Assembly: GCA_044892525.1 (NCBI GenBank)
Contig: CM097885.1
Location: forward strand, 240,932,001-240,996,000
Source of the DNA: Schmidtea polychroa
Lineage: Eukaryota
Length of the DNA: 64,000 nt
Direction: 5' to 3'
Shown here: piece by piece, positions 2,931 to 28,980 of the stretch
Position numbering within the stretch: the first letter of the stretch is position 1
Layout: each line of letters begins with the position of its first letter
The notes under the pieces: model-generated
Seen by the model: the letters and a program-made list of their open reading frames with translations, nothing else
Databases searched by the model: none
Told to the model about the DNA's origin: nothing
Made by a program: the position numbers and the translations under genes

Positions 2931-3740
2931 AAGTTAAAATAAACATTTTATAAGTCAGTAAAAAATATTTTTTTTTTACCATATTTTCTATATCTATAAT
3001 ATAATAATAATAAATAATGAATTTTGTGAATTTAATATGTAATGTTTTCTTTTTCTTTTTTTCTAAATAAAAAAAAATTTTTATAATTACATGGTGTAAT
3101 ATGAATTACATGGTGTAATATGAACATGGTGTAATATGGTGAAATATGAAGCATTGTTGGTAAAAACTTTGAATCCGTAAATTATTTTTCAGAATTCTTT
3201 GAATATGTGTGTTTTAAATGTTTTTAAATTGAGATTAGAGTTGTTGTTTTCCGAATGATTTGAATGATTATTTTATAGATAATTTTGTTTATAAAATATT
3301 AAAAATGTCAATGGGTTACAGGAAATGAAAATAACACCCAATGGTGTTGTTTCCAGCGTAACCCAGTATGTAATGCTTCCATACCACTCGACACCAGTTG
3401 AATAAACAAAATCGTTAATGTGTCAAATTGGCGAAGTAGATGGATGGGTCACCGCTAAAGCAGGTCACCACTGGAACAAAGACATATACCCCCTCCCCCG
3501 GCCGAAGATTTTTTTAAAAAATATTTTTTGTAGAACAAAGACAATGACTCATCCGATGACTCATCAAAAAACAGGTTACCGCTGGAACAAAGACTTTTTT
3601 TTAAATATTAATATTATTATAATATTATAATATTAATATAAATATTATGACCTGTTTTTGGTCATGAAACAAGTTAGTGTTCCCATCATCCGATTTTATT
3701 AAACGATAGCTCATTTTAAAGCCTAGTGCAAGATCTATTT

Positions 3741-3808
<68 letters not shown>

Positions 3809-4107
3809 TTTATCATTAATATTTGGAAAGATTTTAACGCCCGCGCGGAAGATGTTATTTTCAAAATTATTATTATTATTATTATTATATATAGTCCGAC
3901 TTTATCCGAAAAAATATTTTGTCCCCCTATGGGTATTGCTCACAAAGGTACTACTCAAACTCANNNNNNNNNNNNNNNNNNNNNNNNNNNNNNNNNNNNN
4001 NNNNNNNNNNNNNNNNNNNNNNNNNNNNNNNNNNNNNNNNNNNNNNNNNNNNNNNNNNNNNNNNNNNNNNNNNNNNNNNNNNNNNNNNNNNNNNNNNNNN
4101 NNNNNNG

Positions 4108-4842
4108 ATTAAAGTTTTGGATCCGGATAACTCAAAACTACATAAATTGATCTCACGTATTCCTATGTCACGTCGTACAACTGCGCGTCGAATTGGCCAA
4201 ATTACCGAAAATGTTGAAAATAATTTGATGTGTGATTTAAAAAATTGTACAGCATTCAGTTTAGCTCTCGACGAGTCTACTGACATTCAGTATGTTCCAC
4301 AATTAGCCGTTTTTAAAAAAGCGGTTGGGGAATTGGAGTTATTAGATATGCAAGAGGACCAGGCTTTGCAAATGCACCATAAAGTTACTTCTATAATTGA
4401 ATTTTGGAAACTCGTACCAGAGGCAAAATATCCACACTTAAAACAAGCTGCTTGCCGTCTAATTTCAATTTTTGGTACAACATATTGTTGTGAATCTTTG
4501 TACTCCACAATGAAGTTCGTGAAGTCGAAATATCGTTCACAGTTGACCAATCAGCATCTTACAGAATTGCTGCGAACAGCTTTAACAAAGTATACACCAA
4601 ATTTCAAAGATTTGACCAAAAGTCTTCGTTAATTCAAGAAATTTTATTACTTTTTATTAATGGATTTTTATTATATTTTATGTTTGTTACTTAAATTTTG
4701 AAATAATTGTTTTTAATAGCGTTTAAGTCTTTTTTAATCAAATTAATGAAATAAAAAAAAATATGTAGTTCACTATGGTGGCTCTTTAAAAAATAAATTT
4801 TCGGAAAACGTCTCTCATTGAACTCATGCGTGCCCACCCTTG
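4108..4842 (+). mobile_element. Internally deleted hAT (Buster/Charlie, GTF2IRD2-like) element nested in the left arm of Maverick 1
   Basis: ORF reads IPMSRRTTARRI...FSLALDESTDIQYVPQLAVF, joined directly to the C-terminal dimerisation domain EFWKLVPEAKYPHLKQAACRLISIFGTTYCCESLYSTMKFVKSKYRSQL. Right TIR GTGCCCACCCTTG ends at 4842; the left end lies in the N-run. Confidence 0.9.
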
Positions 4843-5409
4843 ATATATATATATATATATATATACAAATTTATATAATTTTTGGTGCCTGCATTCACAA
4901 AATTAGACAAATAATATATAAAAAAATGAATACAAAGCTAAGATTTATTAACATGTAAATTAATATAAAAAACAATTATCATAGAAATTACACATAAATT
5001 AAAATAAAAATACCATTCTAAGATCATAAATAAAATAAATCTGAAAAACAGCATAAAATTTAACTAGTTAAAATTTTTAACCATTTAAATAAATCAAATT
5101 TTGATTTTGATGTCCACACTCGCATTCGCGGTCCTACTAAAATCAGCGAGTGTGAAATTATTTAAGTTGAATGATTGCTTTATTTTTATAGAATTGATTG
5201 CTTTAAACGATGCCTGTGCAACACAGAACCATTTTTTGAAAATATACAAGATCTGGTGGCCGCATAATAATTATTTTAAATTATTATAAAAATACTGAGA
5301 AATATTAAGTTTTCAAATAATACTTTATTGTTAAGTTTATTCATAAGCTTCATATTTAAATTATGTGAATATAATATCACTTTTTAATGCGAAATTTGCT
5401 TTTCTTTTG

Positions 5410-5740
5410 TTTTGGCAAGTTTAAAATTTGTAAGAGAACATTTGAGCTGGTCTTTGAGATTTTCGTCTTCTAGTGATCCTCGGTATTTTGACTTATTATG
5501 TTTTATTTTTGAAAAGAATATTTCGCACAAATATGCCGTACCAAGAAAATTAATAATTTTAAGTGCATTGAATCTTAATTTTGGAAACTATTTTCTATCA
5601 AAAATTTTTTTATAAAATTCAATTTTATCATGCGTTTGGAAGAGCTGTTCTAACTGGAAATTAACTTGCATGTATATAATCTCGAGTTGGTACTTATCTG
5701 GAACTATAATTGTTTATGAAGTTCCAAGCATTTTCAATCC
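5410..5740 (-). mobile_element. Second hAT C-terminal fragment nested in the left arm of Maverick 1
   Basis: Minus strand: YQLEII...FPKLRFNALKIINFLGTAYLCEIFFSKIKHNKSKYRGSLEDENLKDQLKCSLT, with one stop; hAT dimerisation domain. Confidence 0.8.
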
Positions 5741-5759
5741 CTCAACTTTTTCATCATCA

Positions 5760-5817
<58 letters not shown>

Positions 5818-5910
5818 GTTGTAGCACACACTCATTATACTAATTACCAATAGAAATATTGTATTCATGTTGTATCAAATAAAAACTCATATTTTTACTT
5901 TTATAATCTA

Positions 5911-5957
5911 TCAACCAATCAGAATCATATGATATTTCAGTAGTAGTAATATAAATA
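5911..5957 (+). promoter_or_regulatory. CCAAT box (TCAACCAATCAG) plus TATAAATA upstream of the chimeric ORF; mirror copy at 8827-8838 serves the Bcl-2-like gene
   Basis: The same 12-mer recurs, reversed, at 7209-7220 with TGAGTCA and TATAAAA upstream of ATG 7279. Confidence 0.55.
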
Positions 5958-5985
5958 AAACAGTATATTAAAAATTATTGTAAAA

Positions 5986-6450
5986 ATGTCTCAATTTATT
6001 GAAAATGTTCTAAACGGAATTGTCACCGCGAATATAGTCGACAGCCTCAATTTCCTGGTCAATCGAACCGAACAAATCATTGAACTTGAACATATCGATT
6101 ATCAGCAAATGATGGAGATGGAATGCCTGGAAACCAAGAAGTATTCAATAGAATATTTCAGTGTCTTGGATAATAATAAATTACAATATCGAATCAATAA
6201 TATTAAAATCCAATCAGTTACCGTTACTATGGATATGGGACATAGTATCAATATATATAACATGTCGAGAAAATGTGATTGTATGTTTGAACCGCAATTG
6301 TTTCCGACACTAAGACTATTAAAATATAACCGTATATGTGTCAACGTGTTTGTTAGTGGAAAGGTTGTCATGCTGGGGTTGAGAAATTTGGAGTATAGGG
6401 AATTTGTTAACAATGTTAGGAATAAGATATTTTCATTGGTCGATTTCTAA
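5986..6450 (+). CDS. Chimeric ORF: Bcl-2-like N-terminus (from the TIR) fused to a single TBP-fold repeat, 154 aa
   Basis: C-terminal half NIKIQSVTVTMDMGHSINIYNM...MFEPQLFPTLRLLKYNRICVNVFVSGKVVMLGLRN matches the TBP repeat consensus (FKIQNMVGSCD...YEPELFPGL...LIFVSGKVVLTG). The first ~60 codons are the inverted copy of the 8238-8763 gene start. Confidence 0.8.
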   Translation: MSQFIENVLNGIVTANIVDSLNFLVNRTEQIIELEHIDYQQMMEMECLETKKYSIEYFSVLDNNKLQYRINNIKIQSVTVTMDMGHSINIYNMSRKCDCMFEPQLFPTLRLLKYNRICVNVFVSGKVVMLGLRNLEYREFVNNVRNKIFSLVDF

Positions 6451-6505
6451 TTGGTTAATTTCTAATTGGTTAATGTTTGTTTTAAACAAACTGTTTTTTG
6501 TTTAG

Positions 6506-6930
6506 ATGTCATTTTTCAAAATGTACAAAATTCCAAGCGCCACTCGTTTGATGAAACAAATTGATAATTATGGTAAATTTTAGATTTATTATTTACATTT
6601 TTATAGTCTTTATTTTCAGATAAATATTCAGAAGTCATGTTAAATCGACTCAAGTATTTTTATCCCCAACTAAATGAAATTCTAAATGACCAAGAACCTG
6701 AGATTATTCCAGATCTCGTATTTTATGCAACCCAAATCAGGATATTAGAGGTGTTCCATCAATTCCTGTGGAGCATTAAGATAGATAGACAACAGAAAGA
6801 TATGGAACCGGAATACCAATGCATCATCGGATGCTCTTTCTGTGCCGATCGTTATCGGCGATATGTCGAGTGGGAATTAGTGAAAACTCTCAGAAGGTTT
6901 CACTATTCTCGAGTTGTAGATCTCGGGTGA
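6506..6930 (+). CDS. Spliced orphan ORF in Maverick 1 (exons 6506-6572 and 6620-6930), with a C-x3-C-x2-C motif
   Basis: A 47-nt GT..AG intron (6573-6619) joins MSFFKMYKIPSATRLMKQIDNY-D in frame to the listed 97-aa ORF. Confidence 0.6.
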
Positions 6931-7278
6931 TTGTATTAATAAATGTTTTATTGTGTTTTTATTGTTTTTTCTTTTATATATTTCAAATAATAGTAATATA
7001 AATAATAATAATAATAATAATTTGAGAATAATAATAATAAATAATAGTAATAATAATTTGAGAATAGTAATAATAAATAACATGACCCATTAATAATAAT
7101 AGAAATAGATTGAAAATAGTAATAATAAAACAATAATGATATGACACAGAAAATTAATGCAACATCAATGCAATTATGAATGCAATTTAAACAATGACAT
7201 GCTATAATCTGATTGGTTGATATGCATGAGTCAAAGGTATAAAAACCCTGTAACATTTCATTTTAATCATTATTCGCG

Positions 7279-7792
7279 ATGACCAAGATAATTTCAAGCA
7301 CCGAAAACCCTAAAGAAGAACTTGTACAACCGGATCAAATGTTCCACAGCTACAAAATGTATGTTTTAAAGGAAGAAATCAATATGAAATTGGTTGCCCC
7401 GGTCAAGCTTATTCCAACTCAATTTCATTTCTTATCCGGCACGCTTTCAATGATAGATGTTAAAACTATTGATGATGTTTTTAAACGGATAAATTCTAAT
7501 CTAGCATGTAATCAACATGCATGGTTCAACAACAGATATGCAAAATTTTATGATGCATTTGATGAAATCAGTTTCAAAGAAAATGAAAATTGGTAATATA
7601 ACAATTGCAATCCAGGGATATAAAGTTGATAATAATGATGTGTATTCTCCTATTTGGAAAATGATGTCTATTTTAATGTTATATTTAATGTATTTAATAA
7701 AAGTATTAGGCATATTTGTTTTTCTCTTTATTAACAAAGAAATTGCAACATTAATGAAAATGACATGCAAATTTAACAAAAAAAATCTATAA
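7279..7792 (+). pseudogene. Orphan ORF in Maverick 1 (105 aa to 7596; probable frameshifted continuation with a hydrophobic segment to 7792)
   Basis: ATG follows CCAAT, AP-1 and TATA motifs. An overlapping frame continues KIGNITIAIQGY...MMSILMLYLMYLIKVLGIFVFLFI. No family recognised. Confidence 0.5.
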
Positions 7793-7852
7793 ACAAACTT
7801 ATAATATAGTTTTAAAGTGATAAAAAATGACTGCAGAAAAAGGTTAGCATGA

Positions 7853-8188
7853 TTAATTAATTTCCGAATTATTTATAATTTAGAATTTGTAATCAACTTT
7901 TTGTTGGAAAAATTAGCCGAAATAGCTGGTGTAAAAATTGAGGATATATTATCTGTTGCAAATGCATTAAATATCGGCTGGGTAGTTGAGAGTCAAGATT
8001 CATGATTTGATGATCAGGAAGAATCTGATACTCAAGAAACCGATACCCAAGAAATTGATGAGGAAATCTGTGAACCTATAGATGAACTTATAGATACGGA
8101 AAATATTACGAATGATTGTGTAGATCATGTCGTTGAAAATGCAATGAAATGTGGAGATGATGATTGCGAATGTGTTAATAAATTTTAA
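7853..8188 (+). pseudogene. Acidic orphan reading frame with one internal TGA (8003-8005)
   Basis: Reads NLEFVINFLLEKLAEIAGVKIEDILSVANALNIGWVVESQDS*FDDQEESDTQETDTQEIDEEICEP...CGDDDCECVNKF*. Confidence 0.45.
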
Positions 8189-8237
8189 AATTGAATTGAA
8201 TTATTTGCATTCAAATATACTATTATAAACAATAACA

Positions 8238-8763
8238 TTAATTTTTATTCATATATCTACAAAAAATATACATTATAACAACTCCAGTTGCAAATTTTAT
8301 ATAGTTTGTCATTTTTCTTTTGATTTCATCAGTTTCTTTAGCATTGTGGGCAAGTTTATTTAATACACCCCATCCGCCACTGGCTTCTATCAAGGGGGTA
8401 AACTTGGACTTGATTATCTAGAAATGAATATTATTAAAATATATATAGACTATAAAAGAAATCTTACTTCTAAAGACTACTGATAATAATGTTCTGAGTC
8501 ATGTTGACTATTTGCAAAGATTATTTTCATGTAGGTGAATCCTACAATTATCCTTGTCCATTTCATGTCTTCATCGAAAAGACATTGAAATATTCTATTG
8601 AAGTAATACTTATTGGTTTCCAGGCATTCCATCTCCATCATTTGCTGATAATCGATATGTTCAAGTTCAATGATTTGTTCGGTTCGATTGACCAGGAAAT
8701 TGAGGCTGTCGACTTATTCGCGGTGACAATTCCGTTTAAAACATTTTCAATAAATTGAGACAT
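8238..8763 (-). pseudogene. Bcl-2-family gene carried by Maverick 1 (BH1, BH2, C-terminal membrane anchor; one intron; two lesions)
   Basis: BH1-like FNRIFQCLFDEDMKWTRIIVGFTYMKIIF, BH2-like PLIEASGGWGVL, tail anchor YIKFATGVVIMYIFCRYMNKN*. Phase-0 50-nt intron GTAAGA..TTTCTAG at 8467-8418. Lesions: 1-bp deletion near 8715 (intact in the left-arm copy) and TAG at 8479-8477. Confidence 0.8.
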
Positions 8764-10798
8764 TTTTACAATAATTTTTAATATACTGTTTTATTTATAT
8801 TACTACTACTGAAATATCATATGATTCTGATTGGTTGATAGATTATAAAAGTAAAAATATGAGTTTTGATTTGATACAACATGAATACAATATTTCTATT
8901 GGTAATTAGTATAATGAGTGTGTGCTAAAACTAATAATAATAATAATAATAATATCTTTTAATATATTTTAATATCTTTCCCAATATTAATGATAAAAAT
9001 AATATTTATATATCATTAAATAGATCTTGCACTATGCTTTAAAATGAGCTATCGTTTAATAAAATCGGATGATGGGAACACTAACTTGTTTCATGACCAA
9101 AAACAGGTCACCGCTGGAACAAAGACATTATATTTTTAAAATATTAATATTTAAAAAAAATAATGTCTTTGTTCCAGCGGTAACCTGTTTTTTGATGAGT
9201 CATCGGATGAGTCATCGTCTTTGTTCTACAAAAATTATTTTTTAAAAAAAATTTCGCCCGGGGGAGGGGGTATATGTCTTTATTCCAGCGGTGACCTGTT
9301 TTAGCGGTGACCCATCCATCTACTTGGCGATTATTAGTAAAAAGTGAGCTCACTCTGGTGAACTATAATTGGATAACATTCTTATGGATCCACGGACTAT
9401 TAATGGACGATATTTTTCCGATTTATTTCATGGTCCCTGTTATCGTTTAACGCTCAACGAAAAACATAAGAATTGTTAGAAAATTCGACCATAATTCATT
9501 TAAATTTTATTGTACACAAAAAATGTATTTAAGGCAAATTTATTCGGCCTGCAAACGGGTCACAGGTTGTTCTCCAATTCAGACTAAAACTCTGTTAGTC
9601 ATTATTGACCAAACGTTTTGAATTAATTAGTTAAACAAGCTTAACAATTTCATTAAAGTTCTGATCTATTTTAATTTATGTTTAACTACTATTTTTTAAC
9701 TACTATACTTAAAAGTTTTTAATTTATTATTCTGAAAAACCAAATTAATTTTGATCAGACTTATAAGCCTAAAACCCTATTTATGACATCGCTGACTAAA
9801 TTGCCCCATGAATTGGCTGCGCTTTTATACTCATTCTATAATTAAATTCTTTCCCAATCAAATTGATTTTGGGATTTTGAGACTCTCTCTCTCCAGGCTT
9901 TACATTCATCACCTAATTTGTTTTGAATTTCGAATATTTAGGTTTATGAACAATTCATTTATTTTTATGTTAATTTGCCCGAATTTAATTTACCGGTGGC
10001 TCTTTGTTCTCTCGGGTTTTGCTCATACCCCAATTTGGCCTAACCTAATTAAAAATTTTGTTGAATAATCGAATTTTTTCACACTGCTCTGGTTTCCCAT
10101 TAACTCGGGTTTTTAATTAGATAATTAATTTTTAATTAATTTTAGTTTTTTGTAAATATTTCCTTCTGGGGACTCCCCATTCATTTTATTTCATTATATA
10201 TGAATTCGTCTCATTGGTTTGTCATCCATCCATATCAGTTTCCTCCTGAAAATATTCATTTTAAATATTTTTGTACTTTTAATTATTATTGTGAATTTGA
10301 TGTTATTTATATTTTATTTTTGTGCCTATTTCATTAAACTCCAACAATATTATTTTTATGTTAATGATTTTTTGTGTCTGTTTTCTCAACTTTTAACTGT
10401 TTATTGGGTGTTTTCATATTGTTTGAGTTTAACTCGACTTAATGCTATGTTTTTCGTGTTTTATTACCCCCCTGCTTCTTCAAAATCCTCACAATTAGAG
10501 CTTTGTTTTATCGAATGTCAGTTTTGGCCCAATAATTTTATTAATTGATTGCAAAAATTATAAATGAAATGCTTATTAATAAAATATCATTTTAAAAGGT
10601 TTTAAAATAAATATTTTAAAAAATAGATTAATTTCAAAAATAATAATTAATTATTTAAATTGAATTGAAAAATGTTTTAAAATAATAAAATTTTTTAATC
10701 TGTTTATTAAATTTATAATATTTATAGATTTTTCTATCCTATATATAAGGATGACAGGAAAACTTTATTGTCTATTTAATAATAATAAATGTAACTTA

Positions 10799-12157
10799 GG
10801 TATAAGTATACAATAGGGGGGCCACTTTTTTATAAATAAATATATATAGATATAAATATTTAAATATATTAAAGTAATTAAAACATAGTATAGTTCAAGT
10901 ATATATATTAAAAAGACTATCAAGTTACGTTTATATTTACTTGGTATTACACACCACCAAAATCATATTTTTCACGTATTTGATTGATTAATACATCAAA
11001 CGCACGCTCATTTCGACAAAATCTTCTTCTCCACATGAATTCATCTAAGTACGAAGGAATGAAGCTACATCTAGTCCCAAACATATACTTAAATTTCCTT
11101 TTACATAAGGCCCACGAACCTTCTATTCCATTGGTGTTAACGCCGGTTAGGGGATCAATAAAGTGTTCCGAGTGATTCACCCACTGGTGTACATACGGTC
11201 CCAGTCTAGCTAAAGGTGTAGGTGCATTTGGGTTTCGTCGGGGACCACCAGTATAGGTCGAGAATTCATCGGTCCAAATAGTCGTTCCCGGAAGTACAAC
11301 ACGCGAAAAAATCGGAAAAATTTCTTTTTGGGTCCTATTATCAACGAATTCAAAATGTACATTCTTCGTAGTATAGTCTAGAATTCCGAAAACCCACCCA
11401 CTGCGGGCATTCCCTCTCGGTTCGCCACGATTATGCAGCAAATTCATTAACTTGGACTCATCCGCTTGCACTATATGATCTACTCCACCAAACAATAAAG
11501 GTTGAGATACTAACTTCCAACTGGCAATATCTCTGAAATACTGGTACCATTGAATTATAGTTTTTTTGGAAATATCGGTGAAAAGCTGAACTTGTTTAAT
11601 GGAGCATTCCGCGCCCCAAAAATACATCAATAGAAAAAGCTCACGAATATGCAGTTTTGAATTACAAAAAAAACTCCCGTTTGTAATTGTTTGCTTGATT
11701 CGATGAGGATTTACGCGTGCCCGACTCCGGCAAACAAATATATATTCATTTACGACTTTGGAATCTTTAACTAGTTCCATAATACGCCCGCATCTCGCGC
11801 AGGTTGGATCGGCTCGTAACAAACCTACACTTTGGCAATGTCTTATCAAAGACAGTGTGTCTCTTGAAAGTTCATATATTTGCTTTAAATTCATGGCCTC
11901 ATATTTATATATATATATACGTTAAAGATTAATTAAAACATCTTTTAAATAAGGATATNNNNNNNNNNNNNNNNNNNNNNNNNNNNNNNNNNNNNNNNNN
12001 NNNNNNNNNNNNNNNNNNNNNNNNNNNNNNNNNNNNNNNNNNNNNNNNNNNNNNNNNNNNNNNNNNNNNNNNNNNNNNNNNNNNNNNNNNNNNNNNNNNN
12101 NNNNNNNNNNNNNNNNNNNNNNNNNNNNNNNNGGCCCCCCTATTGTATACTTATACC
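10799..12157 (-). mobile_element. Merlin (IS1595/ISXO2-like) DNA transposon
   Basis: TIR GGTATAAGTATACAATAGGGGGGCC at both ends; exact 8-bp TSD GTAACTTA at 10791-10798 and 12158-12165. Confidence 0.95.
10947..11894 (-). CDS. Merlin/ISXO2-like DDE transposase, 315 aa, uninterrupted
   Basis: N-terminal CxxCG zinc ribbon; VQADESK, WVFG, IWTDEFSTY and HQWVNHSEHFIDPLTGVNTNGIEGSW...K motifs. Confidence 0.93.
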   Translation of the reverse strand: MNLKQIYELSRDTLSLIRHCQSVGLLRADPTCARCGRIMELVKDSKVVNEYIFVCRSRARVNPHRIKQTITNGSFFCNSKLHIRELFLLMYFWGAECSIKQVQLFTDISKKTIIQWYQYFRDIASWKLVSQPLLFGGVDHIVQADESKLMNLLHNRGEPRGNARSGWVFGILDYTTKNVHFEFVDNRTQKEIFPIFSRVVLPGTTIWTDEFSTYTGGPRRNPNAPTPLARLGPYVHQWVNHSEHFIDPLTGVNTNGIEGSWALCKRKFKYMFGTRCSFIPSYLDEFMWRRRFCRNERAFDVLINQIREKYDFGGV

Positions 12158-15414: not shown

Positions 15415-16213
15415 ATGTCTAATTGCAAATCTCAACTGACAGATTTTGATTTCATTCGAATTTCAACTCCAGATTTAAACGGTTGTCACTTGTCAAAGCT
15501 TATCTCATCGCAACTTGCTCAACGTATTAAAAACAACGAAGTTGATTTATATGGTGGTGCTATAGCGCTAGGTCCAAGAACCCAATATGTGGCCATTGAT
15601 GAATTTAAAGAAAATAAATCCCGAAATGCTTTCTTTTTTCCCGACATGGACACTTTAAAACCAATCAAATGGGCAGACGATTTGGAGAGAGATTTCCATG
15701 TCGGTGATGTCATAGCAGACATGAAATGGGATGAAACGAGTCCAGTTGAATTTCATCCTCGAATTGTTGCAATAAAACAAATCCAGCGACTGGAAAAAAT
15801 GGATTTGGAATTATTTTCCGCTTTTGAACCAGAATTTAGGGCTTTTAAATTAGATTCATTTGAACCGTTTACTACTGGATTGGACATGAATAAAACGACA
15901 ATGCTAGCAAAATATGAAAAGTTTTTCATGGATTCTGTCACAAAACTTGCTGTAGCCGGTATAGACATACAGGATTGTTGCATTGAACATGGTGAAGGTC
16001 AGTTAGAAATGCCTTTATTACCCTCTTTTGGAATTTCTGCTGCTGATAAAGCTTTTCGATTCAAGCAAGGTATAAAGGAATTGGGTAAACATCACCAAAT
16101 GACTATAAGCTTCATGACAAAACCGTTTTTATCGGAGTCGAGCAGTGGCAATCATTTCAATCATTCATTATGGTATAAATCAACAAAGAGGAATGCTATG
16201 TTTGACGTAAAAG
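15415..16213 (+). CDS. Type-I glutamine synthetase / lengsin-like gene, exon 1
   Basis: FIRISTPDLNG...K, AFEPEF, IEHGEGQLE, FRFKQGIKE, FMTKPF..SSGNHFNHSLW. ATG at 15415; donor AAG|GTATGC, phase 1. Confidence 0.9.
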
Positions 16214-16305
16214 GTATGCAATATCTTTGATGAATATTGTATTTTAGTATCATAATAATATTTAAATATTGAGAACAAGTATAATTTCCTACAAATTAAA
16301 TCATA

Positions 16306-17474
16306 CTCCCTCTGTCCCATAATACTGGATCTTTTTCGTTTGGTGTCCGCGGATTATCGCGAATATACGGCTCAACCTCAATATTGTTTTATTATCAGTT
16401 GAATTAATCATACGACTTTCTAAAAAACATCATTTACCATAAATATAACCGTATCTTCTTGCTTTATTTCAATATTTCATAAAAGGTCAAATATTACAAA
16501 AATCGTTGTCCCATATTACTGGATAGTTTTCACAAAAAACTTAAAATACTTTATAAATCGTCAAAAATTAAAGAAAGTAACAATAATTTTAAACTTATTT
16601 GTTCACATTTAACAATGTTTTATGATTACTTGATATCCCCTATTATTTTGACATTTCATTTTTGGATTTTTTTGTAAACGCCATTTAAATTTTTCGTTGA
16701 TGGTTTGGTGAATGGTTTGATGGCAAAATTGGAAAATGGAACCTGCAAAAAGGAATAGCACTTTCGTTTTCACACCCCTTGCTATTGATAAAAAGGAGTA
16801 CCGCAAAATGGTGATTGCAAAAGTACTTCCAGCAATTAAATCTAAGTGGCCTGGAAATCGCATAAAACCAATTAAAACGATTTTTATTCAACAAGACAAC
16901 GCTACACCTCATATTTCACCAGATGATTCAGAATTTTTCCAACACGCAACAAGCGATGAATTTGATATTCAATTTATCTGTCAACCACATAATTGCCCCG
17001 ATATGAATATCTTGGATTTTGGATATTTTTGAGCCATCCAAAGTGCCTATTATTCAACTAATCCGTCTAATATAGATGGCATTATCAAATTTGTTGAACA
17101 ATCTTTAAATGACATGCCTCGTGATTCGTTGAATAAAGTTTTTTTATCTCTCCTAAATTGTATGATTGAAAGCATCAAAGTCAATGAAGGAGACAATTAC
17201 AAGCAACCACACATGGCCAAGGATCGTAAAATCAATAATGGCACGCTACCTATATCTTAAAGTAAAAGCAGAAATATTAGCAAATGCTCTTTCCATTTCA
17301 TTCTCTCAAATACATGTTTTTACGCACTTATGTAGCAGAACTACCATTTTTAAGAAATAAATTTAATAAAAATTTATCAACTTTTGGACAAAATTAGTTT
17401 TTTATAGAAACATATCCAGTAATATGGGACAAGAAAAACAGAGAAAACTATCCAGTATTATGGGACAGAGGGAG
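16306..17474 (+). mobile_element. Tc1/mariner DD39D (Guest/Stowaway-type) element, internally deleted, in the GS intron
   Basis: TIR CTCCCTCTGTCCCATAATACTGGAT, TA TSD, subterminal GTCCCATATTACTGGAT copies. QQDNATPH...QPHNCPDMNILDFGYF has 39 residues between the Asp in QQD and the Asp in ILD; in-frame TGA at 17030. Confidence 0.92.
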
Positions 17475-18811
17475 TATAATATTATTTTGTATACTACAAC
17501 ACAACTTTACCGGGCTCATAGAAATGGATAAAGACTAAAATTAACTTCTAGTTCATGGTTTACGACTGTTGTCATTTTGTTTTATTTTATTATTCAAATA
17601 TGGTTTATAGTATGAATTTTTAAATTTTAATCAAGAATTTCAATAACTGCCAAGGGGTATTTACATATGAAAAGGTTTTGACAGTTTCGTGCTGTAACTT
17701 TTGGGGGCCCTGTGTAGATACTAAAAACGTTTCTTTTAATTTTATCGCATTCATTTTTATTGATTTTAATTAAAAGAAATAATACAAAGAAATTATAAAG
17801 CAATTTTTCAAGTTTTTGAAAAAAATAACAGAATTATTAGGTATACTTGTTTCAAATTAAATCGTAGCCAATTAGATTTGTTTGAAAGTTAAATGAATTT
17901 TGAATTTCCATCTTTGGTTTTTCTTTCAATTCGACAATTTTTTTTGCTATTGGAGAAGTTTTCATAATGTATTTAATATTTGGGGCCCAGTGCGATTGGA
18001 CTTGCAATAGCGTACGGCGCTGGATTTTGCACGAGTTTTGTTCATTACGAATTACAAGAAATATCTAAACGAAAATATATTTCTATTAATGATGCGTTAT
18101 GNNNNNNNNNNNNNNNNNNNNNNNNNNNNNNNNNNNNNNNNNNNNNNNNNNNNNNNNNNNNNNNNNNNNNNNNNNNNNNNNNNNNNNNNNNNNNNNNNNN
18201 NNNNNNNNNNNNNNNNNNNNNNNNNNNNNNNNNNNAGTAGATGGATTGGGCACCGCGAAACAGGTCACCGCCAGCACAAAGACATTTTTTACCCCACCCC
18301 CCCCCCCCGGCCGGAAAAATTTTTAAAATTTTTTTTTTCAACTTGAGAACAAAGACATATGACTCATCCGATGACTCATCAAGCATTCAAGGTAGACTTG
18401 AGAACAAAGACATATGACTTATCAATGATATATAATTATTATTATTTTTAAAAATATTATTATTTCTAATGTCTTTGTGTTCGCGGTGACCTACTATTTG
18501 GCCTGCTAAAAGTTATTGTTCCCATCAACTTATTTCATCGATCGATAGCGTATTTTGAAGCTTGGTGCAAGACCTTTCGAATGAGCTATTGCTGTNNNNN
18601 NNNNNNNNNNNNNNNNNNNNNNNNNNNNNNNNNNNNNNNNNNNNNNNNNNNNNNNNNNNNNNNNNNNNNNNNNNNNNNNNNNNNNNNNNNNNNNNNNNNN
18701 NNNNNNNNNNNNNNNNNNNNNNNNNNNNNNNNNNNNNNNNNNNNNNNNNNNNNNNNNNNNNNNNNNNNNNNNNNNNNNNNNNNNNNNNNNNNNNNNNNNN
18801 NNNNNNNNNNN

Positions 18812-21288
18812 CTCCGAGTTTATCCGACAAAATATTTTATCCCCCTATGGGTAATGCTCAAAAGGGTACTGCCCCGAGTTTATCCGACAAAATATTTTCT
18901 CCCCCTATGGGTACGGCTCACAAGATTTTGTGTAAATCGTTGATTATATTATTTTTTTTGTTTTAATTATCAATTACATAATAATTTCGTTTTGTTTAAA
19001 TCGTTGATTATATTATTTTTTTGTTTTAATTATCGATTATGTTTGTTTAAATTATCGAATATGTAATAATTTAATTTTGTTTAAATCGTTGATTATATTA
19101 TTTTTTTTTGTTTTGATTATCGATTATGTTTGTTTAAATTATCGAATATGTAATAATTTAATTTTGTTTAAATCGTTGATTATATGATTTAATTTTGTTT
19201 AAATCGTTGATTATATTTTTTTTTGTTTTAATTATCAATTACACAATAATTTCGTTTTGTTTAAATCGTTGATTATATTATTTTTTTTTGTTTTGATTAT
19301 CGATTATGTTTGTTTAAATTATCGATTATGTAATAATTTAATTTTGTTTAAATCGTTGATTATATTATTTAATTTTGTTTAAATCGTTGATTATATTATT
19401 TTTTTTTGTTTTAATTATCAATTACACAATAATTTCGTTTTGTTTAAATCGTTGATTATATTATTTTTTTTTGTTTTAATTATCGATTATGTTTGTTTAA
19501 ATTATCGATTATGTAATTATTTAATTTATCATTATTATTGGGAAAGATATTAACGNNNNNNNNNNNNNNNNNNNNNNNNNNNNNNNNNNNNNNNNNNNNN
19601 NNNNNNNNNNNNNNNNNNNNNNNNNNNNNNNNNNNNNNNNNNNNNNNNNNNNNNNNNNNNNNNNNNNNNNNNNNNNNNNNNNNNNNNNNNNNNNNNNNNN
19701 NNNNNNNNNNNNNNNNNNNNNNNNNNNNNNNNNNNNNNNNNNNNNNNNNNNNNNNNNNNNNNNNNNNNNNNNNNNNNNNNNNNNNNNNNNNNNNNNNNNN
19801 NNNNNNNNNNNNNNNNNNNNNNNNNNNNNCTCCGAGTTTATCCGACAAAATATTTTATCCCCCTATGGGTAATGCTCAAAAGGGTACTGCCCCGAGTTTA
19901 TCCGACAAAATATTTTCTCCCCCTATGGGTACGGCTCACAAGATTTTGTTTAAATCGTTGATTATATTATTTTTTTTTTTTAATTATCAATTACATAATA
20001 ATTTCGTTTTGTTTAAATCGTTGATTATATTATTTTTTTGTTTTAATTATCGATTATGTTTGTTTAAATTATCGAATATGTAATAATTTAATTTTGTTTA
20101 AATCGTTGATTATATTATTTAATTTTGTTTAAATCGTTGATTATATTATTTTTTTTTGTTTTAATTATCAATTACACAATAATTTCGTTTTGTTTAAATC
20201 GTTGATTATATTATTTTTTTTGTTTTGATTATCGATTATGTTTGTTTAAATTATCGATTATGTAATAATTTAATTTTGTTTAAATCGTTGATTATATTAT
20301 TTAATTTTGTTTAAATCGTTGATTATATTATTTTTTTTTGTTTTAATTATCGATTATGTAATTATTTAATTTATCATTATTATTGGGAAAGATATTAACG
20401 NNNNNNNNNNNNNNNNNNNNNNNNNNNNNNNNNNNNNNNNNNNNNNNNNNNNNNNNNNNNNNNNNNNNNNNNNNNNNNNNNNNNNNNNNNNNNNNNNNNN
20501 NNNNNNNNNNNNNNNNNNNNNNNNNNNNNNNNNNNNNNNNNNNNNNNNNNNNNNNNNNNNNNNNNNNNNNNNNNNNNNNNNNNNNNNNNNNNNNNNNNNN
20601 NNNNNNNNNNNNNNNNNNNNNNNNNNNNNNNNNNNNNNNNNNNNNNNNNNNNNNNNNNNNNNNNNNNNNNNNNNNNNNNNNNNNNNNNNNNNATACTCCG
20701 AGTTTTTCCGACAAAATATTTTATCCCCCTATGGGTAATGCTCAATAGGGTACTGCCCCGAGTTTATCCGACAAAATATTTTCTCCCCCTATGGGTACGG
20801 CTCACAAGATTTTGTTTAAATCGTTGATTATATTATTTTTTTTGTTTTAATTATCAATTACATAATAATTTCGTTTTGTTTAAACCGTTGATTATATTAT
20901 TTTTTTGTTTTAATTATCGATTATGTTTGTTTAAATTATCGAATATGTAATAATTTAATTTTGTTTAAATCGTTGATTATATTATTTAATTTTGTTTAAA
21001 TCGTTGATTATATTATTTTTTTTTGTTTTAATTATCAATTACACAATAATTTCGTTTTGTTTAAATCGTTGATTATATTATTTTTTTGTTTTGATTATCG
21101 ATTATGTTTGTTTAAATTATCGATTATGTAATAATTTAATTTTGTTTAAATCGTTGATTATATTATTTAATTTTGTTTAAATCGTTGATTATATTATTTT
21201 TTTTTGTTTTAATTATCGATTATGTTTGTTTAAATTATCGATTATGTAATTATTTAATTTATCATTATTATTGGGAAAGATATTAACG
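18812..21288 (+). repeat. Three ~1-kb higher-order units (two palindrome cassettes plus AT-rich minisatellite AAATCGTTGATTATATTATT...), separated by N-runs
   Basis: Near-identical blocks at 18812-19555, 19830-20400 and 20694-21288, each ending GGGAAAGATATTAACG; a shorter inverted version lies at ~27470-27910. Confidence 0.9.
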
Positions 21289-21960
21289 NNNNNNNNNNNN
21301 NNNNNNNNNNNNNNNNNNNNNNNNNNNNNNNNNNNNNNNNNNNNNNNNNNNNNNNNNNNNNNNNNNNNNNNNNNNNNNNNNNNNNNNNNNNNNNNNNNNN
21401 NNNNNNNNNNNNNNNNNNNNNNNNNNNNNNNNNNNNNNNNNNNNNNNNNNNNNNNNNNNNNNNNNNNNNNNNNNNNNNNNNNNNNNNNNNNNNNNNNNAG
21501 TTTATCCGACAAAATATTTTGTCCCCCTATGGGTATTGCTCATATGGGTAATGGTCAAAAGTGTACTACTCACATTCAACATGTCTCAAAGGGCATAATA
21601 TAATTATTATTAAATTCTGACCAACTTAAATCAATGAAGGGGTAGAACAAAAATATATTACGTTGCGGTATTTTAAATTTAAAAATATTTTTAAAACTTA
21701 TTTTGACACTAAAGTTTACTTATTTAACAAAGACATAATTATTGCACATGCCTTGCATAAATATTATTATTTTTTAAATTTTCAATATTTCTTTTAAAGT
21801 CTTAACACGCGCGGAAGTTATTATTATTATTATTATTATTAGTGAAAAATCTAAAATATTTTCTACACACACACACAACCCATTAAACTTTATTATGATT
21901 ATTATCAATATCAGTCAAAAACCTAAAATATTTTTTACACACATATACAACTCATTAAAC

Positions 21961-22029
<69 letters not shown>

Positions 22030-22060
22030 TTCAAAGAATTATTTTCAAAATTTTTATCAA

Positions 22061-22111
<51 letters not shown>

Positions 22112-22138
22112 CTCCTAGTCTATGTTAACAAAAGGTAT

Positions 22139-22290
22139 TTAACTTGCTCAATTTGTAAAGAAAATCAAGTTTCGGTTTTGTATTTACCGTGCGGTCACGT
22201 AATTGTTTGTTCTAAGTGTCACGAGAAGAATGTTCACAATTGCCAAGCTTGTTCAACACAGATTAATGAATATCATACTATATATATATG
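22139..22290 (+). pseudogene. IAP-type C3HC4 RING finger fragment inside Maverick 2
   Basis: LTCSICKENQVSVLYLPCGHVIVCSKCHEKNVHNCQACSTQINEYHTIY = C-x2-C-x11-C-x-H-x3-C-x2-C-x7-C-x2-C. No start codon; begins just after the arm junction. Confidence 0.8.
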
Positions 22291-22421
22291 TAAGTTCTCA
22301 ATATTATATCAAATGAATTATGGTAATGGATTATGACCGGAAAAATTAACAAATAATATGAAATCACCTTGGTAATTAAATATATGGGGCGCAACTACCA
22401 AATGGTGATGAAGGAATACCC

Positions 22422-22553
22422 ATGAGTTCATCAAAATGGGAAAAAGATCTTCGCAAGAACCATGAAGATGCTCGAAAAGTAGAAAAAACCCTAACAAATA
22501 TTTTAAAGTTGAAATTATGTGTTACAGTAGTATTGGTTATTATTGTTTCGTAA
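22422..22553 (+). CDS. Short ORF with a C-terminal hydrophobic tail (43 aa), possibly a gene remnant
   Basis: MSSSKWEKDLRKNHEDARKVEKTLTNILKLKLCVTVVLVIIVS*. Confidence 0.3.
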   Translation: MSSSKWEKDLRKNHEDARKVEKTLTNILKLKLCVTVVLVIIVS

Positions 22554-25500
22554 ATAAATGTTTTAATTTGTTTTTATAAATTTATTGTTTTATTGTAATA
22601 CTTTTTGATTAAAACATATTCATTTTGTTTTAATATTTGTATTAATTTTTTAAATAGTGTTATTTATATATGGAAATTTACAATTATATATTATATACAA
22701 TTATATTTACAATTATATTTACAATTATTATAAATCATAATGATGGTTTTCTTCTGTTCATTGATTCTCCTCTGATTTTACTGCCATAATCATTTTCGAC
22801 AAAATGCAAATATAATATTTCTAGTGTCTTTGTTAATCATGCCCATTTATTGCAAAGTATTTGTTAATTATGCACTTGTATTGCAAATTTATTAGTCATA
22901 CAATTATATTATTTTTTCATGTCCTGACATAATATTATTATTTTTAATTTTATTATTATTTTGTTTAACAATACCATATAGCAAATTTTTAGGCAATTTA
23001 GTGAAATGTTATTTTAAATATAGGAATTTCTTAAGTAAAATAGATAAATTAACCTATTTAGTTAGAAATCCCTGGTTTTTGGCTGAACCATTTAATTAAA
23101 ATATTCTAGGATTCATAACAAATATTTTGATATAGTTGATACATATACCAATTATTTCAATTATTTAACTAGAAACATAACTGAATTCTTAGGTAATATA
23201 GTATTTTTTAGTGAATTTATAAATATTATCTGACATTTTGATGTATTTGACAACAAATTAATCAATAAAGACCATAGCATATTGTAAGTTTTTATATATA
23301 GTCTGAATTTATCCGACAATATATTTTGTCCCCCTATGTGTATTTGTCGTAAGGGTACTGCTTACATTCAACATGTCGCAAGGGTATATTAATTAAAGCA
23401 TATGTATATTAATTATTCTTAGGCAATTTAGTGAGAAATGGATGATCATAGATATCAGAAATTCGTGAATATTTTGAATGTAACTTACCGAATTCTCATT
23501 TCGAGCGACTAATTTATTGGTTAAATTTTTCATGTTTAGTCATTTAAAATAATATTTAGCAAAAGGTAAGATATGAATATTTAGTATTTCATAGGTAATT
23601 TATTCATCTAATGTTCATTACAATAGTTAATATAACTTCGTGAGAAATGTATGGTTATTAATATATTCATGGATATTTTTGGTAGAAAGTCTTTATCATT
23701 TGGAGTAAATTTCTGTCTATGTTCGAGACAAAAAAGAGACATAATAGAAATATGATCATTTGGTTATCATTTAACCAATTAAGGTGCTTATTAGTTAGAA
23801 ATATAGGGTTACAATTCTTTTCTAATTTAATGAGATGATCATAGGGTGTAATATATCTTTTTTGAGAAATACATGGTTAACATTTTTAAATAGGGATTTT
23901 GAGTAACCAAAACAGGGATATTTTGTGCGAATAATTTAAGAATATTGGTTAATTTTCTCTTTTTTAGTCATTTAAAATAATATTTAGCAAAGGTAATTTA
24001 GCAAAATATCATTGAAGGATTTATCCATCCGATAATAATATTCCTTCAATAGATTTTACCCTTTATTCAACCGATTTAATTTCTAGAAATCTAATTAAAA
24101 TCATAAAATTCCTTCAATAAAGATAAATTTTCTTTAGCGGTTGTCGATTTCCAACTTTTAAGTCAATATTTCTCAAGTTTTGTCACTGATATCCCCACAA
24201 TGACTAAAATAACTTTTTAAATAAAATAATTTAAAGCAATAACCTTTGATATCAATCCCAATTAATTCTAAAGATTTCAAATATTTCATTGTGAAAACCA
24301 AGTCAATTGATCATTAACCCTAAACGACTTAATAAAACAGTGGATAATTAATAAAAAACTTGTTCTAAAACATAAATTACTGTGCAATAACATTCATCAC
24401 AGCCTAATAAACGATATAATTTCACAGGAGCTATTATTAATTCATAGCTGACTATTTCCCTTTAAAATTTTACCAATAAGAACATTGTCGATTTAAATAG
24501 AGATTTCAAACATTTCCACCTTAACCAATCCCTCACCAAATATTTCTACCATTTTAAACACCCCCCCCCCTTAAAAATCATATATTACCATCTTAACCAA
24601 CCGACTTTAATATATCAGCCCTTTAATATATCAATTCTCTTAAATCCATAGAAAATTCATCAAAATATGAATATTATTTAATTGTTTCAGACATCCCTCC
24701 ATTGAAATAATTTAGTATCTAAATTCATGTAGTAAAAGCCCACTAAAAGATCAAATTTACTAAAATCAATATTTTCTACAAATATTTCGCCACATTTACC
24801 ATCAAATACCTAACTAGAGATGAAATATATTGTTTGATCATAATTCTTCATCGATTCAGCTAATTATATAGCAATTATAACGTGATATATCTTTCAAAAT
24901 CACAAATTTCAGTATATTTTACAATAATTTTTACAAAAATTAAATAATGATCACTTGATTATTGTAAAAACTCTAATTATTAACCTAACTGTCATTAAAA
25001 ATAATTTTTATTTAAAATTAAATTTAAAAACAAGTCAATAAAATATAGCAAATTATCAAGAAATTAATTAAATTTGTCTTAGAATTAACACTAAAACGTT
25101 AAATTTCAAAATATTCTTTCAATTATTCACAAAAAGGTTAGTAATAATGTTAGTAAAATCCCGCTAACTCTAAAAATTACCAATGAATTTAATGCTAAAT
25201 AATAACCAAAAATTTGCCTAAATAAAATCATTAAAACATCCCAGTACCATTACGACCAGTACCCTTACGAGCAGTACCAATTGTGAACAGTACCCATAGA
25301 GGGAGAAAATATCTTGTCGGATAAACTCAGAGTATATATAATAAAACGAATTAACAATAACTCCATCAAATTGAATCAGTCAAATTAACACAAATTTTGA
25401 TAAAAAAATCATATTCTAAAATGGTAAGAAGCGTAAAGTCGAAAGATAATTTTAATAACACCGAGATAAATTAACAATATCATTCTCAGGTGGTAAGGAT

Positions 25501-26045
25501 CTTTAAATGCATTTAAAAAAATGCATTCAAAATGCATTTATCATAATTAAATAAATCAATCAAATATTCAATAGAGGAATGTTTGAAAATTTTTAAAATA
25601 TTTATGATTTCCTTATCAGTGTAAGTATCGTGATTATTTATAAAAGCTTCAACTGTGCTGTTAAAAAATTTCAATGAACGCTTATCTTCGGAATAGGTTG
25701 GACTTAATTTTTCCATATTTCTAGTAGGACTTATATAAAAAATATTGACAAAATAATAAAGTTACTAAATGTGTTTTGTGATTTACACAATCATATTCAT
25801 ACTTGTAGAAATCATCAGTAATAAATAAATTTCTTAATAACTAAATTACTTTTGTTTTTACATTTATAAAAATTGAGATAGCCAATCAAATTAGTGTTTT
25901 ATAAAATGTAGAAATTGTAACCATGGTTGAACAATAATAATAATAAGCACGACTAGTACCCTTGCAACCTGTTGAGTGTGAGCAGTACCCATAGGGGGGA
26001 CAAAATATTTTGTCGGATAGACTAGGAGTATATATAATAATAATA

Positions 26046-26076
<31 letters not shown>

Positions 26077-26371
26077 AAATAAGAAATTTGAAGATAATTT
26101 TGAAAATGATAATAATAATATTTTATAAATAAAATAAGAATTTTGAAGAAAATAATCATGAAAATTATGAAAATGTTAAAAATAATGAAAATATAGAAAA
26201 TGATGAAAATGTTGAAAATGATGAAAACGTTAAAAATTATGGAAATGATCCTGAAAATAATCATCAAATATTGAAAATCGTAAAATGGTGCAGAAATTAA
26301 GTTTTATGAATATTTAAGTAAATAATGATAATGAAACTTCTACAATAAAATAATAATTAGAATTTTGCAAA

Positions 26372-26402
<31 letters not shown>

Positions 26403-26652
26403 AATATTGATAAAAATTTTGAAAATAATTCTTAGAAAATAATACTTTGAAAAATATTTGATGAAAAGTTCCTGAAATAATCATGAAAATGTTGAAAATC
26501 GTGAAAATATTGAAAATGTAGAAAATTATTAAAATATTCATGCAAATGATGAAAATGTTGAAAATCATGAAATTGACGTAAAAATTATGTTTTATAAATA
26601 TTTAAGTAAATAATAATAATGAAACTTCTAAAATAATAGTTAGAATTTTGCA

Positions 26653-26697
<45 letters not shown>

Positions 26698-26834
26698 GTT
26701 TAATGAGTTGTATATGTGTGTAAAAAATATTTTAGGTTTTTGACTGATATTGATAATAATCATAATATAGATAATAATAATAATAAAGTTTAATGGGTTG
26801 TGTGTGTGTGTAGAAAATATTTTAGATTTTTCAC

Positions 26835-26874
<40 letters not shown>

Positions 26875-27920
26875 TTCCGCGCGTGTTAAGACTTTAAAAG
26901 AAATATTGAAAATTTAAAAAATAATAATATTTATGCAAGGCATGTGCAATAATTATGTCTTTGTTAAATAAGTAAACTTTAGTGTCAAAATAAGTTTTTA
27001 AAATATTTTTAAATTTAAAATACCGCAACGTAATATATTTTTGTTCTACCCCTTCATTGATTTAAGTTGGTCAGAATTTAATAATAATTATATTATGCCC
27101 TTTGAGACATGTTGAATGTGAGTAGTACACTTTTGACAATTACCCATATGAGCAATACCCATAGGGGGACAAAATATTTTGTCGGATAAACTNNNNNNNN
27201 NNNNNNNNNNNNNNNNNNNNNNNNNNNNNNNNNNNNNNNNNNNNNNNNNNNNNNNNNNNNNNNNNNNNNNNNNNNNNNNNNNNNNNNNNNNNNNNNNNNN
27301 NNNNNNNNNNNNNNNNNNNNNNNNNNNNNNNNNNNNNNNNNNNNNNNNNNNNNNNNNNNNNNNNNNNNNNNNNNNNNNNNNNNNNNNNNNNNNNNNNNNN
27401 NNNNNNNNNNNNNNNNNNNNNNNNNNNNNNNNNTTGAAAATAATAATAATAATTTTGAAAATATTCCGCGCGGGCGTTAATATCTTTCCCAATAATAATG
27501 ATAAATTAAATAATTACATAATCGATAATTTAAACAAACGTGATCGATAATTAAAACAAAAAAAAATAATATAATCAACGATTTAAACAAAACGAAATTA
27601 TTGTGTAATTGATAATTAAAACAAAAAAAATAATATAATCAACGATTTAAACAAAATCTAGTGAGCTGTACCCATAAGGGGAGAAAATATTTTGTCGGAT
27701 AAACTCGGGGCAGTACCGTTTTGAGCATTACCCATAGGGGGATAAAATATTTAAAATAAAATATAATATAATCAACGATTTAAACAAAATCTAGTGAGCT
27801 GTACCCATAGGGGGAGAAAATATTTTGTCGGATAAACTCGGGGCAGTACCCTTTTGAGCATTACCCATAGGGGGATAAAATATTTTGTCGGATAAACTCG
27901 GAGTATATAGATTAATACTC

Positions 27921-27992
<72 letters not shown>

Positions 27993-28980
27993 TCTTGGGA
28001 AAATGTTAATAACTTTGCCAATATTAAAGATGGTGATGACAACAATAGCGCATTCGAAAGGTCTTGCACCAAGCTTCAAAATACGCTATCGATCGATGAA
28101 ATAAGTTGATGGGAACGATAACTTTTGGCAGGCCAAATAGTAGGTCACCGCGAGCACAAAGACATTAGAAATAATAATATTTTTAAAAATAATAATAATT
28201 ATATATCATTGATGAGTCATATGTCTTTGTTCTCAAGTCTACCTTGAATGCTTGATGAGTCATATGTCTTTGTTCTCAAGTCTACCTTGAATTCTTGATG
28301 AGTCATCGGATAAGTCATATGTCTTTGTTCTCAAGTTGAAAAAAAAAATTTTTTAATTTTTCCGGCCGGGGGGGGGGGGGTGGGGTAAAAAATGTCTTTG
28401 TGCTGGCGGTGACCTGTTTTCGCGGTGCCCAATCCATCTACTGAAATTACATTTTTAATATTCAAAATTATATTTAATTTTCAAATTATTATATAATCAT
28501 GGATTTAGATTACATATAAGAAACTAAATCAAATAGTCGGGAAATCGAAGAAATCGTGACAGGTTATTTTTTGAAAAATCTTCCGAATGTGGCTTGTTTT
28601 GCTTTTATATTCTATTACTTAACAAACTCGTAGTAGGTAGATTCTGTCTCACAAGTGCTAGTCCTAAGGGTTATGGCGCCCGATGGCTTTATTGGTACTA
28701 TATATATATACATTCATTAGAAACTATAAAACAATAAATAAAGAATATACTTCAGTGCTTTTAATTAATATTATTTCTTTTCAATTGATATTGTATTTAT
28801 TAAAAAACATCGATATATTTACTGATTCATAGTCAAGATTTTTAATAAATACAATGAATAATGTTAAACTAAGTATTTCTTTACTTAAATAATTTTTAAT
28901 AATTTCTTACAATTTTTAAATGTAGCAGTCTCAGAGGTGGTTTATTTTATTTAAAATTCAGGAAATAATATAAGTATTCA

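What the first reader, a model, noticed from the sequence alone, without database searches (positions are those of the whole stretch)
5986..6450. TBP-fold protein fused to a Bcl-2 N-terminus
Codons ~70-150 match one TBP repeat (FEPQLFP...VFVSGKVVMLG). The first ~60 codons are the inverted duplicate of the Bcl-2-like gene start. Relative to the right-arm copy, a 4-bp deletion (AAGTATTACTTC to AAGTATTC) puts this copy in frame with the TBP domain, giving an uninterrupted chimera behind a CCAAT/TATA promoter. Single-repeat TBP-like proteins occur in some viruses and could dimerise. Whether the chimera is functional or a chance product is inference.
Basis: partly seen in the sequence, partly recalled or inferred. 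Interest (0 to 1): 0.85.

Follow-up and report, generated by a model that had tools for sequence, protein, structure and literature searches.

The report
Chance fusion in dead Maverick copy
This reading frame is a single-copy fusion inside a gutted copy of a very abundant virus-like jumping element, joining the start of a probable cell-death-blocker gene to the back half of a small TATA-binding-type gene, and it is most likely a functionless accident of DNA repair.

Summary
The 154-codon frame, the TBP match, the inverted duplicate and the 4-base loss are real. The frame lies in a 5.9-kb Maverick/Polinton copy (3435-9324, 6-base target duplication) that has lost its polymerase, integrase, ATPase and capsid genes. 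The TBP part is not a natural single-repeat protein. It is the back half of a compact two-repeat TBP-fold gene (about 145 aa; confident model aligns over yeast TBP 66-240), whose own joint occurs at 1,183 places in this genome against 1 for the fusion. Only codons 1-53 are Bcl-2-like; the BH1-like, BH2-like and membrane-anchor parts are absent. The TBP half carries 8 private changes, all altering the protein, 4 at near-invariant positions, whereas relatives show dN/dS about 0.2. Best reading: a one-off repair product, in frame by chance (0.87). Expression is untested. The parent mini-TBP is widespread beside Maverick core genes and is the more interesting object, but the scan had already noted it on other DNA, and a TBP label appears in Starrett et al.

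The parts
3429..3434 (.). left 6-base target-site duplication (same six bases at 9325-9330)
3435..3963 (+). left terminal inverted repeat (begins AGTAG) and subterminal sequence of a Maverick/Polinton; followed by N at 3964-4106
4107..4840 (+). hAT transposase remnant inside the element (frame 4165-4632); outer limits approximate
   Evidence: Pfam Dimer_Tnp_hAT E 1.7e-9
4870..5816 (.). foreign filler: 4870-5198 a dispersed repeat; 5199-5817 is 94.8% identical to a locus about 11 Mb away (L049) that also runs into an ATT tract; ends in (ATT)19 at 5760-5816
5817..6167 (+). inverted duplicate of this element's own right arm: promoter-like DNA and 5' part of the Bcl-2-like gene
   Evidence: 4 of its 6 private letters are shared with the right arm
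5986..6144 (+). fusion frame codons 1-53: start of the Bcl-2-like protein, ending before the BH1-like motif
6145..6165 (+). fusion frame codons 54-60: Bcl-2-like DNA read out of frame after the 4-base loss
6165..6167 (+). joint with a 3-base microhomology shared by both parents
6166..6450 (+). fusion frame codons 61-154: linker and second repeat of the element's compact TBP-fold gene (parent residues 52-145)
6637..7596 (+). two cargo frames of the element (6637-6930, 7279-7596), colinear with sister copies, no Pfam family above cut-off
8241..8763 (-). Bcl-2-like gene, predicted two exons; in this copy broken after codon 16
8933..9324 (-). right terminal inverted repeat (ends CTACT)

Best explanation
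The frame is a single-copy fusion inside an internally deleted Maverick/Polinton copy, likely made by microhomology-guided repair of a break and likely without function. Shown: the element's core (first half of the TBP-like gene, ATPase, integrase, capsid-like genes, polymerase) is missing; in its place lie a hAT remnant, filler DNA and a 351-base inverted copy of the element's own right arm, entered through an ATT tract and left through a 3-base microhomology in the linker between the two TBP-like repeats. A 4-base loss puts the two halves in one frame. Inferred: the order of events, the repair route, and that the frame is open by chance (one frame in three, with 0.56 odds that 7 shifted codons hold no stop, in a family of over a thousand copies). 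If translated, the product would be half a TBP saddle, unable to span a TATA box alone, behind a helical fragment lacking the Bcl-2 groove and anchor.
For: Element ends and 6-base duplication. No hit to sister core proteins anywhere in the window, whereas sisters carry ATPase, integrase and pPolB upstream of the TBP-like gene. Fusion joint at 1 place with up to 3 mismatches against 1,183 for the parent joint; 18 of 19 other copies continue into the parent's first repeat, 1 is cut shorter, none is fused. Parent model pLDDT 96, aligned over 145 residues to yeast TBP 66-240, Z 13.2, rmsd 2.4. The lost half holds 12 of the family's 33 columns conserved at 90% or more, including an invariant Phe. 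Kept half: 8 private changes, 0 synonymous, 4 at columns 95-100% conserved in 80 homologs; relatives have median dN/dS 0.21 over 30 of 153 pairs. No protein among 248 fetched carries the Bcl-2-like start. 4 of 6 private letters in the duplicate predate the duplication, so decay had begun before the fusion.
Against: The frame is unbroken over 154 codons and sits behind the donor gene's promoter-like DNA, which sisters share. The cut falls cleanly in the linker, leaving a whole repeat with both its conserved Phe. 0 of 8 synonymous is compatible with neutrality (P 0.18) but is a small sample, and the 9 sisters compared were the 9 of 19 with unbroken, equal-length halves. Single TBP-domain proteins exist in archaea (PMC3597702, passages). 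Transcription was not tested.
Confidence: 0.87

Rival explanations
1. The fusion is expressed and useful: the half-saddle pairs with itself or with the full mini-TBP of sister elements, and either binds DNA or poisons their transcription factor, so the host keeps it.
For: Open frame, promoter-like motifs and a cut exactly between the repeats. The 4-base loss happens to give the frame. Archaeal single-domain TBP proteins appear functional (PMC3597702, passages).
Against: One copy. Every private change alters the protein and half hit near-invariant columns. No such fusion among 248 related proteins. The family is kept at two-repeat length: median 151 aa, 84 of 109 between 140 and 165 (that search covered only 79-254 aa).
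Confidence: 0.05
2. The rearrangement arose during the element's own replication, by a template switch between its arms, before this copy integrated; the fusion is still a by-product.
For: The donor is the element's own other arm. The duplicate is younger-looking than the terminal repeats (1.4% against 3.5%) but not significantly so (Fisher P 0.105).
Against: No second copy of the rearranged form. Host-type filler and a hAT remnant lie between the left terminal repeat and the duplicate.
Confidence: 0.05
3. The joint is an assembly error (fold-back or chimeric read).
For: The locus is built of high-copy repeats, and I have no independent read support for the joint.
Against: The two arms differ by 5 substitutions and 2 indels, unlike a copied read; the target duplication is intact on both sides.
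Confidence: 0.03

Closest known systems
Mavericks/Polintons (adintoviruses) of animals
   Same: Terminal inverted repeats starting AGT and ending ACT, 6-base target duplication (PMC8097293, passages); sisters encode pPolB, integrase and A32-like ATPase; Bcl2 homologs are reported as cargo (10.1101/697771, passage); most copies are degraded (PMC8097293, passage).
   Different: This copy has no core gene left and carries an inverted duplicate that fuses two cargo genes. Ends read AGTAGA rather than the vertebrate (AGT)2 motif.
TBP and viral two-lobed TBP-like proteins (Pfam PF00352; Ravarani et al., PMC7221094; genes labelled TBP in MELD viruses, 10.1101/697771 legends of Figs 5 and 6)
   Same: The parent has the full saddle fold, matches NCLDV TBP-like models (23 at E <= 0.001) and keeps three invariant Phe.
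   Different: The parent is about 30 residues shorter, with no long helix predicted in the first repeat, 21-27% identity to cellular TBP. The fusion has only the second repeat.
Single TBP-domain proteins (halobacterial TbpA and others; Brindefalk et al., PMC3597702)
   Same: One TBP domain per chain.
   Different: Those are conserved archaeal genes; this is a single-copy truncation of a two-repeat gene with an unrelated start.
Bcl-2 family (Pfam PF00452)
   Same: The donor gene in sisters has BH1-like and BH2-like motifs and a hydrophobic tail; all 7 solved-structure hits at E < 10 are Bcl-2-family proteins or their fragments by molecule name, one named only by a clone code.
   Different: Scores are below the Pfam cut-off; the fusion keeps residues 1-53 only, which give no Pfam hit.

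Membership tests
Maverick/Polinton (this copy) | terminal inverted repeats with AGT...ACT ends and 6-base target duplication | tested here: met
Maverick/Polinton (this copy) | pPolB, integrase, ATPase and capsid genes in the copy | tested here: not met
   no tblastn hit in the window; so a defective derivative, not an autonomous element
Maverick/Polinton (family of this copy) | pPolB, integrase and A32-like ATPase in colinear sister copies | tested here: met
   DNA_pol_B_2 E 4e-32 and 1e-9, Pox_A32 E 6.5e-5, rve weak in the sister but E 1e-12 in a metagenomic relative
Maverick/Polinton (family of this copy) | double jelly-roll major capsid protein | tested here: inconclusive
   candidate frames labelled by position and size only; no capsid family in Pfam; not folded
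TBP (fusion product) | two repeats forming one saddle | tested here: not met
   only parent residues 52-145 present
TBP (fusion product) | at least one TBP domain | tested here: met
   Pfam above cut-off
TBP-fold protein (unfused parent) | two-repeat saddle fold | tested here: met
   predicted model, Z 13.2, rmsd 2.4 over 145 residues
TBP-fold protein (unfused parent) | binds TATA DNA and recruits TFIIB or polymerase | not testable with these tools
   needs binding assays
Bcl-2 family (fusion product) | BH1 and BH2 motifs and C-terminal anchor | tested here: not met
   frame leaves the donor at codon 53, before the BH1-like motif
Bcl-2 family (donor gene in sisters) | significant profile match | tested here: inconclusive
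   exon 1 E 0.0007-0.003, 18.5-20.7 bits against cut-off 31.4; exon 2 alone no hit; exons scanned separately; not folded
Functional single-domain TBP protein | conserved as a gene under purifying selection | tested here: not met
   single copy, 0 of 8 private changes synonymous; small sample

The most novel reading that the evidence does not exclude
A host has gained, from a wrecked Maverick, an expressed half-TBP that pairs with itself or with the mini-TBP of more than a thousand sister elements and blunts their transcription: a newborn restriction factor made by repair, and a live example of a two-repeat TBP reverting to a single-repeat protein.
Probability: 0.04. Interest if true: 0.7.

Novelty: new member of a known kind. 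Interest (0 to 1): 0.2.

Why it matters
The fusion itself is ordinary: a clear example of how decayed virus-like elements in repeat-rich genomes yield long, promoter-fronted, domain-bearing frames that look like new genes. What has value is the parent. A compact TBP-fold gene with a stripped first repeat is under purifying selection and sits beside Maverick core genes in 25 of 35 fetched contigs of 3 kb or more. If it reads the element's own promoters, Mavericks would have a private transcription factor, as inferred for larger DNA viruses; that is testable by binding assays. I would put that at about even odds and moderate interest, but it is not this finding and the scan had noted it before.

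Tried and rejected
Folding the fusion without an alignment gave pLDDT 30.6: uninformative, not evidence of misfolding. Two copies of the kept TBP half scored 0.19 and 0.16 against a mark of 0.32: no answer either way. No RNA holder was listed among 17 runs. Eight runs, all contigs, were laid: no listed piece bridged the joint, but the piece tables were cut (32 of 2,169 and 19 of 21 shown) and a hole proves nothing; loose ends at 6145 and 6165 looked, by eye, like the two unfused parents. One run guessed to be RNA held a parent-type contig; not counted as expression. An 18-base joint pattern was too short: 140 matches, mostly one other repeated word; replaced by a 35-base pattern. IMG/VR gave 1 distant locus with no hit to the sister core proteins. 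Rejected: a captured host TBP exon (the half is 88-95% identical to element copies); a natural single-repeat family (12 database proteins of 103-172 aa start at the family's invariant internal Met, but the one contig I could inspect with that pattern, L091, has the first repeat in another frame). Host not established; paper searches on a planarian guess added nothing. In-print check: searches; only the Starrett preprint and paper link TBP to such elements; term look-ups found no TBP in PMC11071296, PMC11071308, PMC11131425, PMC10748475, 10.64898/2026.06.19.733378, 10.64898/2026.10.13.758929. Figures, supplements and repeat databases were not seen and may hold more.

Full report
What is there. 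Window 5986-6450 is an open frame of 154 codons. Residues 72-135 match Pfam TBP above the cut-off (E 1e-10) and solved TBPs. The first 60 codons, with about 170 bases upstream, are an inverted copy of 8579-8954.

The setting. The frame lies in an element from 3435 to 9324 with inverted ends (AGTAG...CTACT) and a 6-base target duplication, the signature of Mavericks/Polintons (PMC8097293, passages on end motifs and duplications). I fetched four sister regions. They are colinear with the window from 6165 rightwards; all four have an ATPase frame directly upstream of the TBP-like gene, and between them they show integrase, candidate capsid frames and a protein-primed polymerase (Pfam DNA_pol_B_2 E 4e-32, Pox_A32 E 6.5e-5; capsid labels rest on position and size only). 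None of these proteins hits the window. This copy has lost its core.

The TBP part is half a gene. The 39 other matches scored for 5900-6700 all begin at or after 6165. Of 19 copies examined, 18 continue upstream into a different sequence that encodes about 51 residues, 1 is cut shorter, and none is fused; at least 5 have an unbroken frame of about 145 codons from an ATG. One such natural protein, folded with 80 homologs, gave pLDDT 96. It matches TBP over its whole length: 44 PDB matches at E <= 0.001, and 145 residues aligned to yeast TBP 66-240 at Z 13.2 and rmsd 2.4, far above the first unrelated row at Z 6.3. The parent is thus a compact two-repeat saddle whose first repeat has no long helix in the model. 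The fusion keeps residues 52-145 only. The lost half holds 12 of 33 strongly conserved columns and one of three invariant Phe; that such Phe wedge into the TATA box is established knowledge, and PMC7221094 (passages) names a Phe in each lobe as the key contact.

The Bcl-2 part is a fragment. In 11 sister genes printed (of 14 loci) the frame runs 104 codons. A predicted 52-base intron leads to a second exon with a BH2-like motif and hydrophobic tail. Exon 1 scores below the Pfam cut-off and hits Bcl-2-family structures only weakly (best E 0.27), so 'Bcl-2-like' is probable, not proven. The fusion follows this protein to residue 53, then shifts frame at the 4-base loss for 7 codons. The BH1-like motif, BH2-like motif and tail are absent.

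It happened once. The fusion joint occurs at 1 place in the 781-Mb assembly with up to 3 mismatches; the parent joint occurs at 1,183, control 0. None of 248 fetched proteins carries the fusion's start.

How it likely arose. Both parents share 3 bases at the joint. The duplicate's other end is an ATT tract, present both before the Bcl-2-like promoter and at the end of the filler DNA, which is 94.8% identical to a locus about 11 Mb away. The donor was this element's own right arm: 4 of the duplicate's 6 private letters are shared with it. The arms differ by 1.4%, the terminal repeats by 3.5% (P 0.105), which leans to an event after integration without proving it. A break repaired by template switching through short homologies explains this patchwork; that step is inference. 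An open frame needs little luck: one frame in three, 0.56 odds for 7 stop-free shifted codons, and over a thousand decaying copies.

Selection. Against 9 sisters (the 9 of 19 with unbroken halves of equal length) the kept half has 8 private changes, all altering the protein; 4 fall on columns 95-100% conserved in 80 homologs. That fits neutral decay (P 0.18 for no synonymous change), though the sample is small. Relatives show median dN/dS 0.21, maximum 0.38, over the 30 of 153 pairs with usable divergence.

Against my reading. The frame is unbroken, the cut leaves a whole repeat with both of its Phe, the promoter-like CCAAT and TATA words are those of the donor gene, and archaeal single-domain TBP proteins appear functional (PMC3597702, passages). 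Expression and read support for the joint remain untested; the fold and dimer jobs gave no answer (see Tried and rejected).

The parent family. It has 109 relatives at E <= 0.001, median 151 aa; a profile found 61 representatives at E <= 1e-30 and 3,441 at 0.001, the latter probably including ordinary TBPs. Of 177 metagenomic matches the best 80 were fetched; with the one IMG/VR locus, 34 of 81 loci, and 25 of 35 of 3 kb or more, hit a sister core protein. The gene is therefore recurrent Maverick cargo under purifying selection, likely a DNA-binding promoter factor of the element (inference).

What is known. Starrett et al. (10.1101/697771; passages and section 8 read whole) report Bcl2 homologs in adintoviruses and label TBP genes in figure legends for MELD viruses. 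Ravarani et al. (PMC7221094, passages) describe two-lobed TBP-like proteins in dsDNA viruses. My searches found no description of this compact family or of such a fusion; figures and supplements were not seen. The scan's own earlier notes describe the same element family with mini-TBP and Bcl-2-like cargo elsewhere in this genome and in others; I read them after forming my reading, and they are unchecked AI notes.

Verdict. A real but one-off fusion in a dead Maverick copy, most likely functionless (0.87). Functional chimera 0.05, pre-integration by-product 0.05, assembly error 0.03. Interest 0.2.

Noticed in passing
window 18236-28442: A second element with the same end motif, 10.2 kb, full of inverted and tandem repeats, with no hit to the sister core proteins; its left flank is N, so the target duplication cannot be read.
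   Followed up: partly
window 10947-11894 (-): Unbroken 315-codon frame with Pfam ISXO2-like transposase domain, E 1.3e-13; probably a Merlin-type element (name recalled).
   Followed up: no
window 15415-16230 (+): 271-codon frame with glutamine synthetase catalytic domain, E 5.9e-24, apparently one long exon of a host gene.
   Followed up: no
window about 16305-17477: By eye, an element with short inverted ends flanked by TA and a broken transposase-like frame at 16736; ends resemble plant-type mariner/Stowaway (recalled, untested).
   Followed up: no
window about 1750-2900: By eye, a degraded hAT-like transposase remnant upstream of the Maverick copy.
   Followed up: no
proteins P0100, P0108, P0149, P0159, P0161, P0165, P0166, P0167, P0171, P0173, P0192, P0202: Twelve database proteins begin at the Met that is invariant in all 81 aligned family members, at the end of the first repeat. 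Probably gene-caller truncations, but an internal start there would give a natural second-repeat-only form.
   Followed up: partly
L052-L132: None of the 81 fetched loci has a hit to the Bcl-2-like exon 1, so the TBP plus Bcl-2 pairing may be local to this lineage; many contigs are short.
   Followed up: partly
L023-L034, about 1835-1886: The Bcl-2-like cargo gene has a predicted 52-base intron, in frame, with donor and acceptor found in 8 of 11 copies; introns are unusual for such elements.
   Followed up: partly
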